Position numbers: made by a program. Source: Candidatus Micrarchaeota archaeon (GTDB lineage Archaea; Micrarchaeota; Micrarchaeia; Anstonellales; Bilamarchaeaceae). From it: a stretch of 64,000 nt of DNA. This document shows positions 33,001 through 36,000 of the stretch, piece by piece (the stretch's first letter is position 1; the number at the start of each line of letters is the position of its first letter). The stretch lies in contig JBDRPL010000032.1 in NCBI GenBank assembly GCA_043827025.1, forward strand, positions 1 through 64,000. The letters run 5' to 3'.

Positions 33001-36000
33001 AAGCATTGGCCTTTTTTTGGCCTCATAGCTCTCTGAAACGAATTCTATGAAGGCATCTTCCCAGTCTTCGTCAAGAAGCATCATCAGCGTATAGAGTGCA
33101 GTGAAGTTAGGGGTTAGGCCTGAACTGTCCTTTTCAGGATTGCTCAAAGTGCTCACAGCTATCCTTACAAGTGCCATCCTTGAGTTTTCATGGTGCCTTA
33201 TTTCTTCAGGAGATACCTCTTTTTTGGTTGCATAGAGCCCCATTATGTCCCAGAACACATCTCGTATATTCTTATCTGGATGGCTTGCGAATTTCTTGAG
33301 CTTTGGCTTTGTTGGAGGTGTGTCAACGTATTCTGTATCGTCATCCCCTCCGTGAATTGGACCCTTTTGCTCCTGCTTCTGTTCTACCATGTATTTTGTA
33401 TATGGGAGATAAGCTTATTTAACCTTGATTCCGTACTTTTATCATGGTTAATAATGCAGACGAACAACTTTTAGGTGCAGTGGAGAAGGGAGATCTGAAA
33501 GGTGTCAGGAATGCGCTTGCCCATGGCGCCAATGTCAATGCAGTAGCCTATGTTGGAGATGCGTATTCGCAGACCTCGCTTATAATTGCAGTTGCAGATG
33601 GAAATTATGGCATTGCCAAGCTTCTTTTGGAATCAGGTGCCAATCCCAATTTTCAAATAAATGGTGAGGATTGGAATGGAATGAGTGCGCTCATGTGGGC
33701 GGCAATGAAAGGATACCATAGAATTGCAAAGCTTCTTTTGAAGCATGATGCTTTAGTGACTCTAAAGGATGAACATGATTTCATGGCCTATGATTTTGCA
33801 ATTGAGAATAACCATAAGGAGATCGCAAAACTCCTTGAAAAAAAATCAAAGGATAAGAATGTCCTGCTTTTGGAATCTGTTGATTCTGATAATCTTAACG
33901 GAGTGGAAGAAGCTTTAAAGAAAGGGGCGGACGTAAATTCAAAATATCCTGAAGGTGACACGCCTCTCTTACGGGCATGTAATCCAACCACTCCTGAAAT
34001 AGAGGTCGCAGTGTTGCTTGTCAAGCATGGTGCGAAAGTGGATGCCAAAACAAAAGATGAGATAACCTCTCTTATGCTCGCTTCCATTCGAGGCGAGAGT
34101 TCCCTTGTGAGCCTTTTCCTGAAAAAAGGTGCGGATGTGGATGCAAGAGACAAGCAAGGTAGAACTGCACTGATGTATGCTGCGGATAGCTGGAGATGCT
34201 GGCCTGAAGTTGTAAAAATATTGCTGAAAAATGGTGCGGATCTGAAGATAAAAGACAAGGATGGGAAAACCGCGTATGACCTGGCAGAGAACAAATGCCC
34301 AGAAAGGCTGAAATTGGTCAAATCCCCAAGCCAGGGGCGCATCCATGAACCATATACTGCAGACATAAAGGAGATAATCAATCTTCTAAAGGGTGCGGAA
34401 AAAAAGAAGTAGTTGGTTTTTTAATAATTTGCACTCAAACGTTATTCCTATTTCATATGCCACCGTGGCTCAGTTGGTAGAGCGTGTGCTTGGTAAGAAA
34501 CTCTTTCGGGGTGCCTAAAGAGTTTCATCAGAAACCAATGAGTACAAGGTCGTGAGTTCAATTCTCGCCGGTGGCTTCTCATTTTTTATTCGAAGCCACC
34601 TATTTTATGCCTCACATAAAATCTCTCGAAATTCTCATTGAATTTCTCGATCGCCGGTGGCATTTCATTTTTTTATTCGAATTCTGGCAATGATTAAAAA
34701 CCCTACCAGTGTTTATCTTTTCAGTGATATTATGGACAAAGACGAAATCATCCTCACATGCAAATACAAGGGCTTTAACATAGGAAAGAAATACGAATTC
34801 GACAAGCCTGATCCAAAAGTGATTGCAGGGGTTTTATCCTCTCTTTCCGAAGATATCGAGCAGAAGGCATTTGAACTTTCTGGGATAGATACGAAAAAAA
34901 TAGATGAGCTTGTTTCTAAGAAAACTGATCTTATCGAAGGCATAAGGACAACAAAAAAGGAGGATCTTCTTGCTGGTTGCAACAATGACAAACCTATGAT
35001 CCCTATTGCAGAATCCTACTTTCTCAACAAGATGTTCAAGAAATTCAACATTCCAATAAGGCCCGCTCCTAATACTTCGTATCCTTCCAAGAAGGAAGAG
35101 CCGTCGAATGTTGTTTTCATTGGAAATGTCAAGCCTTGGTTTGCTGCCAGGAAAATTCTAGTAGGGAAAACAACTGAGGATTACGAAATTTCAGGTGTCT
35201 TGTCAGCTGCTAATTACACAATAGTGAACAAGTCCTTTGAATTTTTCATGAGCACCATCCCAATGGCTGGCGAGATGGCGCAATTCGGCCAAGGAGAGCG
35301 AAAGAGTTTTGCAAATCTTGCTGCAGCATTGGAGAAGCTCAGGGCATTCTTGTTGTTCTCTAAATCACTTACAAATAATAATCCTGATTTGGTTGCATAC
35401 AATTATTTCAAGGTCTGTTCAAATGTCGGCTTCAACAAGGGCGTTCCAGGCTTTATGCCATATGCAAATACATACGTAATGGTTGGCAAATATCCTGATT
35501 TGAAGATAAAGAAGCCTAAGGGAAGGGTTGCGAAAGGTTAGCGTTTATGGGTCCAAGAACCAAACCTATGGAACAACTTGAATATCCTAGTGGATGGGTT
35601 TATGTAAATACTTCAGAACAGGCGCATAATTATCTAAGGGGGCTCTGGGATTCTTTCCTAGATGCACATAGGATTGCATTTCCTCTTACTGAAAATCAGT
35701 GGAACAAAATTGCAGATCAGTCATTTGCCATTCCAAAAAAATATACGATGGATGTTTTGACTGTTCTAAACAGATTTCTTCCAGAAGAAACAAGAAAAAT
35801 TATTGAGAAATATCCACCCTATTTCATTGTGATGCCAGATGCCTACTTTGAGGTTCGTGGAACGAAGTCTGTCGCTTTTTGGGGAAACACTAGTGGTTCT
35901 GTTGTTGGCGCGGTTATGCGTGATGAGAAGAGTAATGTAATCTTTGTTTCCCAAGGTGAATATGCGAAACTGAATTCTGTCAAAGGACTCGTTCCGTTGC

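What a model noticed while it worked through the whole genome (the two positions that open the first line are those of the whole stretch)
34497..34536. Hairpin element with co-varying mirror tail (triplex signature) inside tRNA introns
The commonest intron module is a 30-45 nt hairpin with a pyrimidine arm, a purine arm, a closing stem, a 3-nt linker and a purine tail that is the mirror image of the purine arm. Where a C stands in the pyrimidine arm, a G stands at the matching place of the tail, which is the signature of an intramolecular triple helix (or H-DNA) rather than of simple Watson-Crick pairing.
Evidence so far: 15 of 15 copies with hairpin plus mirror tail lie at tRNA loci, none in CDS. 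Unconditioned scan: 14 copies carry the tail, all on the tRNA sense strand, 0 of 6 hairpin rows elsewhere. Across 176 Anstonellales genomes 48 carry it, controls 0; with the tail left free as any five purines, 30 of 35 copies with one C in the arm have the exact mirror tail (C at position 2: 6 of 6; 3: 16 of 18; 4: 6 of 9; 5: 2 of 2; counted by hand, two ambiguous rows left out), and every listed all-T arm has an all-A tail. The closing stem varies with compensatory changes.
(Added by a program. Inside this text positions count along the whole contig: contig position 1 is position 1 of the stretch shown here. "Call 12" and the like, gene names such as g00115 and contig names such as C1 are that model's own, and its searches are not shown. 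The text may have been shortened before it was handed on; [...] marks where a part breaks off. The agent that wrote the report below was given it as the finding of a first reader that could run no searches.)

Follow-up and report, generated by a model that had tools for sequence, protein, structure and literature searches.

The report
Triple-helix repeat colonising archaeal tRNA introns
This 38-base piece of a tRNA intron is one copy of a small, widespread repeat whose three strands change together as a triple helix would require, and which turns up in tRNA and rRNA introns of tiny archaea and between genes of other microbes and giant viruses, so it is a testable candidate source of new archaeal introns.

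Summary
With the tail left free, 25 of 34 metagenome/viral copies of this exact class carry the mirror tail, against 0 of 27 look-alikes lacking the outer stem pair. The '3-nt linker' is not a linker: its three bases covary with the closing stem as further triples, a G swapping between strands. In a long-loop subfamily the tail strand continues into an 8-bp pseudoknot helix. The framing 'tRNA-intron module, sense strand' is too narrow. Copies also lie in rRNA genes, beside tRNA ends, on the antisense strand, in inverted pairs and arrays, between genes of other archaea and Clostridia, and in giant viruses. Best reading: an A/T-rich relative of the class II intrastrand-triplex repeats (BoxC/PIT/TM), folding as single-stranded DNA and spreading as a small non-autonomous repeat. 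Micrarchaeota tRNA genes tolerate it because its hairpin foot supplies the intron helix at the 5' splice site. The fold is untested and no mobilising enzyme was found.

The parts
34459..34576 (+). tRNA-Thr(GGT) gene, host of the focal copy
   Evidence: Rfam RF00005 53.2 bits; ARAGORN with introns, i(38,45)
34496..34540 (+). 45-nt intron at 37/38 with a relaxed bulge-helix-bulge junction
   Evidence: cloverleaf plus intron hairpin in the minimum-energy fold
34497..34501 (+). 5' strand of the closing stem; its inner three bases are one side of three covarying triple columns; also the h' helix at the 5' splice site
34502..34506 (+). pyrimidine arm with C at position 2
   Evidence: class tested with the tail free
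34507..34516 (+). 10-nt loop; its 3' end resembles the 5' strand of the pseudoknot helix kept in related copies (inferred vestige)
   Evidence: L013 has a near-identical loop and a 6-bp match to the bases after its tail
34517..34526 (+). purine arm and 3' strand of the closing stem
34527..34529 (+). three bases called 'linker'; third strand of the foot triples
   Evidence: columns 3-37-40, 4-36-41 and 5-35-42 of alignment A1
34530..34534 (+). purine tail, exact mirror of the purine arm
34535..34540 (+). intron side of the 4-bp central splice helix and the 3' bulge, directly abutting the tail
   Evidence: complementary to anticodon-loop bases 34490-34493; predicts this helix, shifted by one base
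53593..53632 (-). second copy in the window (C at arm position 3), outside any intron, upstream of tRNA-Ala(GGC); identical over 42 nt to a copy upstream of tRNA-Ala(TGC) on contig C25
53634..53648 (-). first 15-nt direct repeat (leader plus tRNA positions 1-11), one base from the foot of the second copy
53540..53554 (-). second 15-nt direct repeat, the actual 5' end of tRNA-Ala(GGC)
53389..53550 (-). tRNA-Ala(GGC) gene with a 90-nt intron that lacks this module

Best explanation
The element is one copy of a 30-60-nt non-autonomous dispersed repeat, an A/T-rich relative of the class II intrastrand-triplex repeats. Shown by covariation: one strand, the one with the A-rich tail, carries three matched segments. 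These are a 9-13-bp hairpin and a fold-back third strand read as T-A*A and C-G*G columns along the arm and as C/G/C, C/G/G, C/C/G, A/T/A or G/C/G columns at the stem foot. In a subfamily the third strand runs on into a Watson-Crick pseudoknot helix with the loop. Inferred: this is a 7-9-layer major-groove triple helix formed in transiently single-stranded DNA. It is kept because a trans-acting enzyme recognises it when the repeat is copied, as RAYT does REP; the enzyme is unknown. Copies land in non-coding DNA in either orientation, singly, in inverted pairs or in arrays. In Micrarchaeota, tRNA and rRNA genes are sinks: a copy whose foot lies one base behind a cut site supplies the intron helix h', and the broad-specificity three-unit splicing endonuclease removes it. 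The triplex itself is not a splicing aid.
For: Mirror rule with the tail free: 25 of 34 against 0 of 27; also seen in giant-virus and Methanophagales copies. Arm length tracks tail length: 24 of 28 four-pair arms have A4 and 26 of 34 five-pair arms have A5. Foot columns in 52 gapless copies: first column C/C/G 28, C/G/C 13, C/G/G 11; third column G/C/G 28, A/T/A 19. In 28 of 52 the hairpin alone would hold a C.C mismatch that the third strand repairs. Pseudoknot pair 29-48: GC 40, CG 10, AU 2, none broken; 88 double changes against 31 in shuffles, 0 of 500 shuffles as high. Strand: T.G 31 against C.A 11 in outer pseudoknot pairs. Spread: 40-42-nt identical copies at different loci of this genome with unrelated flanks; unrelated introns at the same Thr(GGT) site in 6 other genomes; inverted pairs and arrays; no preference for the mRNA strand in viral contigs, 13 against 24. 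Holder 2015 shows a class II repeat folding as a DNA triplex and states that purine-motif triplexes cannot form in RNA. A 392-aa splicing endonuclease is present; the ARMAN-1 three-unit enzyme has 390 aa.
Against: No structure probing, and for TM_ECO in vivo DMS showed no protection. No enzyme found: no link to Y1 transposase or DUF559, and no recurrent mobile gene among 80 neighbouring ORFs. Only 20 of 337 copies (12 after dropping arrays and re-parses) have a direct repeat flush with the foot, of variable length, against 13 of 1176 controls. A pseudoknot with G.U-type wobble and the roughly 4:1 sense bias at tRNA loci fit RNA as well. A 2026 review lists A.A-U and G.G-C major-groove triples in RNA. 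The wobble test on the hairpin itself was inconclusive (9 against 5). Copies are related, so counts overstate independent events. Thr(GGT) genes of several relatives also carry the module (L028, L080, L580, L657), so the focal copy may be inherited.
Confidence: 0.55

Rival explanations
1. The fold matters in RNA: the transcript or excised intron forms a triple helix plus pseudoknot that stabilises it or marks it for reverse transcription, and cDNA copies insert in both orientations.
For: Sense bias at tRNA loci, 46 against 12; foot flush with the 5' splice site in most intron copies; H-type pseudoknot with wobble pairs; occurrence in abundant RNAs, tRNA and rRNA; purine-type RNA triples exist.
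Against: Holder 2015 states that purine-motif triplexes do not form in RNA; no mRNA-strand preference in viral contigs; antisense partners of inverted pairs keep their own, different compensated columns (L603, L604); no Rfam family. Reverse transcriptase co-occurrence was not tested.
Confidence: 0.25
2. No dedicated enzyme: the triplex stalls DNA polymerase, and its aligned 3' tail primes slippage or snap-back synthesis, so the repeat copies itself and its flanks locally.
For: PIT elements block DNA polymerase in vitro and TM loci are unstable; flank duplications of 12-30 nt end within one base of the foot; tandem arrays of whole or half units; the bases after the tail complement the loop.
Against: Identical copies on different contigs with unrelated flanks need long-range copying. 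An inverted copy of the upstream flank is frequent only in tRNA introns (10 of 57) and rare elsewhere in prokaryotes (2 of 134), which points to selection for splicing, not a by-product; 13 of 95 viral copies also show it, possibly by A/T chance. PIT had no effect in vivo.
Confidence: 0.1
3. A host-selected splicing aid or switch specific to tRNA introns.
For: The hairpin supplies h' at the 5' splice site; many introns carry a distal second copy of the purine arm that could compete for the pyrimidine arm.
Against: Most copies outside Anstonellales are not in tRNA genes; orthologous introns lack it. In the Thr copy the tail abuts the central splice helix, so a docked tail would hold that helix strand about ten base pairs from its partner (inference).
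Confidence: 0.07
4. Chance in A/T-rich DNA, or alternative Watson-Crick pairing.
For: With C in the middle of the arm the mirror equals the reverse complement; loose patterns gave mostly chance hits.
Against: C positions 2, 4, 5 and 6 discriminate and follow the mirror; controls give 0-3 hits and 0 of 27.
Confidence: 0.02

Closest known systems
BoxC / PIT elements / TM_ECO, class II intrastrand triplex repeats (Holder et al. 2015, PMC4666352)
   Same: Order pyrimidine arm, loop, purine arm, turn, mirror purine arm on one strand; dispersed, non-coding, either orientation, inverted pairs; no known function or enzyme.
   Different: A/T-rich with 4-8-nt arms instead of a G/C-rich 9-nt stem; extra closing stem with strand-swapping triples; pseudoknot subfamily; lies in tRNA and rRNA introns and giant viruses ('tRNA' does not occur in that paper's main text); the evidence here is covariation, there spectroscopy.
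REP / BIME / REPIN repeats with RAYT (definitions partly recalled; brief description in PMC4666352)
   Same: 20-40-nt palindromes, extragenic, in doublets and mosaic arrays, inside operons of housekeeping genes.
   Different: No fixed tetranucleotide tag (feature recalled); a covarying third strand instead; no linked Y1 transposase.
Bulge-helix-bulge introns of Micrarchaeota cut by the three-unit endonuclease (PMC3239211, PMC5829648)
   Same: 37/38 and non-canonical positions, relaxed junctions, a 392-aa endonuclease in this genome.
   Different: In the passages I read these introns are described by their junctions only; here the intron body is a shared repeat that also lives outside introns.
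ENE-type and telomerase U.A-U RNA triple helices (architecture recalled; classification in PMC13541005)
   Same: Three matched tracts, major-groove triples, pseudoknot context.
   Different: One T tract and two A tracts on the strand favoured by the wobble test, not two U tracts and one A tract.
Mimiviridae 3' hairpin polyadenylation signals (PMC4402537, search listing only)
   Same: A/T-rich palindromes at gene borders of giant viruses.
   Different: The one-sided mirror tail and its orientation-free placement are not part of that rule as far as the abstract says.

Membership tests
Class II intrastrand triplex repeats (BoxC/PIT/TM) | Pyrimidine arm, purine arm and mirror purine arm in that order on one strand | tested here: met
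Class II intrastrand triplex repeats (BoxC/PIT/TM) | ITxF limits: stems 6-15 nt, loops 1-6 nt | tested here: not met
   Focal copy: 5-nt arm (8 with foot columns), first loop 10 nt (limits)
Class II intrastrand triplex repeats (BoxC/PIT/TM) | G/C-rich TM_ECO consensus | tested here: not met
Class II intrastrand triplex repeats (BoxC/PIT/TM) | Dispersed, non-coding, no strand bias | tested here: inconclusive
   Non-coding met (4 of 124 scored copies inside an ORF); no bias in viral contigs, sense bias at tRNA loci
Class II intrastrand triplex repeats (BoxC/PIT/TM) | Oligonucleotide folds into a triplex (CD, NMR) | not testable with these tools
   needs bench work
REP/BIME/REPIN with RAYT | Short palindrome in doublets and mosaic arrays outside genes | tested here: met
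   13 tail-to-tail, 4 foot-to-foot and 27 tandem pairs; arrays in G146
REP/BIME/REPIN with RAYT | Linked Y1 (HUH) transposase flanked by the repeats | tested here: not met
   No module at transposase ends in 30 Y1 loci; hits there belong to a neighbouring tRNA or lie far off; 18 of 55 against 26 of 121 genomes
MITE | Terminal inverted repeats and a fixed-length target duplication | tested here: not met
   Inverted pairs in some introns, but duplications in few copies and 12-30 nt long
Bulge-helix-bulge tRNA intron | 4-bp central helix, 3-nt bulges, flanking helices, at 37/38 | tested here: met
   Met in relaxed form: the tail strand is looped out between h' and the central helix
Bulge-helix-bulge tRNA intron | Spliced product seen | not testable with these tools
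   no RNA holder listed
ENE-type U.A-U RNA triple helix | Two U-rich strands enclosing one A-rich strand | tested here: not met
   one T tract and two A tracts on the favoured strand
Any Rfam family | Covariance-model match | tested here: not met
   17 loci at E up to 1: only tRNA at gathering score

The most novel reading that the evidence does not exclude
A class of minimal mobile elements defined only by a fold (strand-swapping triple helix, optionally capped by a pseudoknot) is shared by DPANN and methane-cycling archaea, Clostridia and giant viruses. It spreads by a mechanism not yet described and is a main source of new tRNA and rRNA introns in Micrarchaeota, because each copy brings its own splice helix.
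Probability: 0.3. Interest if true: 0.85.

Novelty: new variant of a known kind. Interest (0 to 1): 0.64.

Why it matters
Two open questions meet here. How archaeal tRNA introns arrive is stated to be open in an October 2026 preprint on Asgard archaea; here a defined repeat sits at the splice junction of many introns and also outside them, so arrival can be tested. BoxC/PIT/TM repeats have had no function or enzyme since the 1990s, and in vivo evidence for their fold was negative. Natural three-strand covariation, including a G that moves between strands, is evidence that selection acts on such a triplex, and it gives ready-made mutant and rescue sets. The module also explains why standard tRNA finders miss genes in this lineage (0 found in the window without the intron option).

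Tried and rejected
IS200 TnpA as partner: no module at transposase ends and no genome-level link. DUF559: 12 of 176 genomes at E up to 0.001, two strong; most of the 11 weak hits I read look like Vsr endonucleases (label recalled); one strong hit is framed by G/C-rich modules, not this family. Neighbour genes: 80 ORFs beside copies in ten genomes, mostly housekeeping, none a recurrent transposase, nuclease or reverse transcriptase. Hammerhead, C/D box or IS605 end look-alikes on the opposite strand: the letters are not kept when the stem changes. Snap-back synthesis as the general origin of the splice helix: the flank complement is mostly confined to introns. Wobble test on the hairpin stem: inconclusive, with several mis-paired rows. 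Loose patterns gave mostly chance hits; 10 of 16 viral position-2 rows came and failed the mirror test. Last loop base against first base after the tail in short-loop copies: C follows regardless, so no covariation was shown. Sequencing runs: no RNA holder listed, and the related DNA runs were too fragmentary to show gain or loss at either window site. The upstream copy was absent before tRNA-Ala(TGC) of the sister genome, but the flanks are not alignable, so this is no clean empty site. Literature searches found no paper describing this A/T-rich family or triplex repeats in tRNA introns. Most subscription journals are not searched, and I did not open the supplementary tables or database of Holder 2015, which may list A/T-rich class II motifs of archaea.
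Full report
**What is at the coordinates.** The window holds tRNA-Thr(GGT) at 34459-34576 with a 45-nt intron at 37/38. One base into the intron begins a 10-bp hairpin: a 5-bp closing stem, a 5-nt pyrimidine arm with C at position 2, a 10-nt loop and the complementary purine arm. Three bases follow, then a 5-nt purine tail that is the mirror image of the purine arm, then at once the four bases that pair with the anticodon loop. 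The hairpin beats all 200 shuffles as RNA and as DNA, and the pre-tRNA folds into a cloverleaf in which this hairpin is the helix next to the 5' splice bulge. A second copy lies at 53593-53632 on the minus strand. It is not in an intron but upstream of tRNA-Ala(GGC), between two 15-nt direct repeats of the tRNA's 5' end.

**More than chance.** A flexible detector finds 18 copies in this genome, 17 at tRNA loci, against 0 and 0 in two shuffles and 3 in the reversed genome. A pattern that leaves the tail free gives 205 matches in 55 of 176 genomes of the order, against 11 for the reversed pattern. The cleanest test used the focal class, with the tail free, on metagenome and viral contigs. Of 61 distinct matches, 34 also had the outer stem pair closed: 25 carry the mirror tail, 2 start with four A and 7 are unrelated. 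None of the 27 open-stem matches has the mirror. In Anstonellales loci and this genome the tail followed the arm up to the first C in 34 of 41 rows (position 2: 9 of 10; 3: 17 of 20; 4: 6 of 9; 5: 2 of 2); one row is a second parse, and I chose many of these loci after seeing the match lists. The rule also holds in giant-virus contigs for C at position 4 and in the genome behind a Methanophagales record. Lengths are matched too: 24 of 28 four-pair arms have four A in the tail and 26 of 34 five-pair arms have five (Spearman 0.69 over 64 copies). Related copies are not independent, but each C class recurs in more than one lineage.

**The linker is part of the helix.** Copies with two C at the foot of the arm have two G opposite and CC (5), CG (8) or CA (1) at the foot of the tail; one copy has three of each. 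A long-loop subfamily shows more (30 loci came with the search and I picked 40 further regions by eye). In 52 gapless copies with 27 different foot haplotypes, the first foot column (5' strand / purine strand / tail strand) reads C/C/G 28, C/G/C 13 and C/G/G 11, and the third reads G/C/G 28 and A/T/A 19. In 28 of 52 the hairpin alone would hold a C.C mismatch; the G has moved to the third strand. The highest corrected mutual-information pairs are the stem pairs, one pseudoknot pair and these third-strand contacts. I infer a 7-9-layer triple helix: reverse-Hoogsteen A.A and G.G along the arm, and C+.G-C-type and mixed triples at the foot. The geometry is inferred, not shown.

**A pseudoknot subfamily.** In the same copies the eight bases after the tail complement the last eight bases of the loop. 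Pair 29-48 reads GC 40, CG 10, AU 2 and is never broken. The whole structure has 88 double changes against 31 in shuffles (0 of 500 as high) and exceeds all slid controls; the tool warns that relatedness inflates such counts. In the outer pairs T.G outnumbers C.A 31 to 11 (72 rows, about three of them chance parses), which favours the A-tail strand as the one that folds. The same test on the hairpin stem was inconclusive. This helix could also belong to an alternative long hairpin, since many introns end in a decayed inverted copy of the 5' half. The focal copy has a loop like that of L013, which keeps a 6-bp match, but has lost the partner strand.

**Where it lives.** In this genome 11 of the 17 copies are sense intron copies, 2 are antisense at the 3' end of introns, 3 lie in duplicated tRNA 5' ends and 1 follows a 3' end. 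In relatives it occupies D-loop, anticodon and T-loop introns, 23S and 16S rRNA genes, mosaic arrays directly behind tRNA 3' ends, and intergenic DNA. Near tRNA-like motifs 46 copies are sense and 12 antisense. Some introns hold an inverted pair, each member with its own compensated columns (L603, L604). In viral contigs the A-tail strand was the mRNA strand in 13 and the opposite strand in 24 co-directional gaps. In one Clostridia genome it is the core of a longer composite repeat with 14 matches.

**Signs of spread, and their limits.** Two upstream copies here are identical over 42 nt, and another pair over 40 nt, with unrelated sequence beyond the tail. At the Thr(GGT) site six other genomes matched by one pattern have different introns, including the sister genome (7 of 99 matched). 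Four other relatives do carry the module there (L028, L080, L580, L657), so the focal copy may be inherited. Direct repeats of 12 nt or more flush with the foot occur in 20 of 337 copies, 12 after I dropped eight rows (arrays of the element, one low-complexity row, one second parse), against 13 of 1176 uncurated controls. They vary in length, so they are not a classical target duplication. No enzyme was found: Y1 transposase is in 18 of 55 carriers and 26 of 121 non-carriers (hand count; p=0.13) and is not flanked by the module. DUF559 is rare, and one of the two strong hits is framed by G/C-rich modules of the BoxC type. Eighty neighbouring ORFs are mostly housekeeping.

**How it most likely works.** Shown: three-strand covariation, dispersal and recent copying. 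Inferred: the A-tail strand folds into a purine-motif triple helix in single-stranded DNA, a trans-acting protein recognises it during copying, and copies settle in non-coding DNA. In Micrarchaeota a copy placed one base behind a cut site supplies helix h'. The genome encodes a 392-aa splicing endonuclease, the size of the three-unit enzyme (390 aa) that cuts relaxed junctions. An inverted copy of the exon flank is seen in 10 of 57 tRNA-sense copies but in 2 of 134 other prokaryotic copies, as expected if splicing selects among insertions. In the Thr intron the tail abuts the central helix, so a docked tail and a formed splice junction are hard to reconcile (inference). I give this reading 0.55, an RNA-level fold with retro-copying 0.25, enzyme-free self-copying 0.10 and a splicing aid 0.07.

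**Comparison with what is known.** The closest system is the class II intrastrand triplex repeat BoxC/PIT/TM_ECO. Of Holder 2015 (PMC4666352) I read the abstract, the first part of the introduction, two of four parts of the results, the first half of the discussion and passages, but not the supplements. That repeat has the same strand order, folds as a DNA triplex in vitro, shows no strand bias and has no known enzyme. Ours works like it, but fails its consensus and its size limits, so I do not file it as a member. REP/RAYT and ENE features are recalled. I saw passages of PMC5829648, PMC3239211, PMC13541005 and bioRxiv 10.64898/2026.10.13.758758, the abstract of PMC3293823, and only the listing of PMC4402537. 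Eight searches found no description of this family, and Rfam has no model. Earlier notes of this scan report the same class on other DNA. They are unchecked, and I had reached the BoxC comparison before opening them; none held all the words when 'pseudoknot' was included.

**Verdict.** Real feature; triplex signature well supported; intron-only framing too narrow; a new variant of a known but unexplained kind. Interest 0.64.

Noticed in passing
window 34566-34594 and 34652-34681 (+); 53380-53396 and 53298-53314 (-): Both tRNA genes of the window are followed by an imperfect second copy of their 3' end and trailer about 80-85 nt downstream.
   Followed up: no
window 53427-53515, run X2: A contig of another organism has the tRNA-Ala(GGC) intron replaced by a 40-nt intron made of this module (tables 5 and 5c).
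   Followed up: partly
G000:C30:39108 (-); L564; L013: A second, dumbbell-shaped palindromic module of about 50 nt is inserted between closing stem and tail; in C30 and L564 the mirror tail is kept beyond it.
   Followed up: partly
G000:C6 near 11600 (-) and C9 near 20000 (+): The regions upstream of two IS200-type transposase genes carry G/C-rich purine-pyrimidine-pyrimidine modules (hairpin plus C-rich tail), seen by eye, a different layout from this family.
   Followed up: partly
L452 (G164:C48): A short DUF559 frame is bracketed by inverted G/C-rich BoxC-like modules; the genome has 6% contamination.
   Followed up: partly
L051-L056, L068, L069 (G146, G145): Mosaic arrays of several modules in both orientations start directly behind tRNA 3' ends.
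   Followed up: partly
L523, L527, L530, L533-L543 (G184); L521, L525, L528-L532: In Clostridia the module is the core of a longer composite intergenic repeat that also holds G/C-rich hairpin-plus-mirror units.
   Followed up: no
L500, L501, L514: The gap behind the EF-Tu/EF-1A gene holds a composite module in three genomes, in both orientations.
   Followed up: no
alignment A1 columns 17, 22, 50: Loop column 17 covaries with columns 22 and 50 (G-C 20, T-A 13, A-T 2 of 52 for 17-50), a possible extra contact at the weak pseudoknot pair; may be shared descent.
   Followed up: no
window 33444-34412 (+) and 54471-55382 (-): Ankyrin-repeat genes lie at or near both tRNA loci of the window.
   Followed up: no
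window 53425-53514 (-); G000:C9 near 46750: The tRNA-Ala(GGC) intron and a T-loop insertion of tRNA-Leu share a short periodic A/G-rich motif that recurs near tRNA genes of relatives.
   Followed up: no
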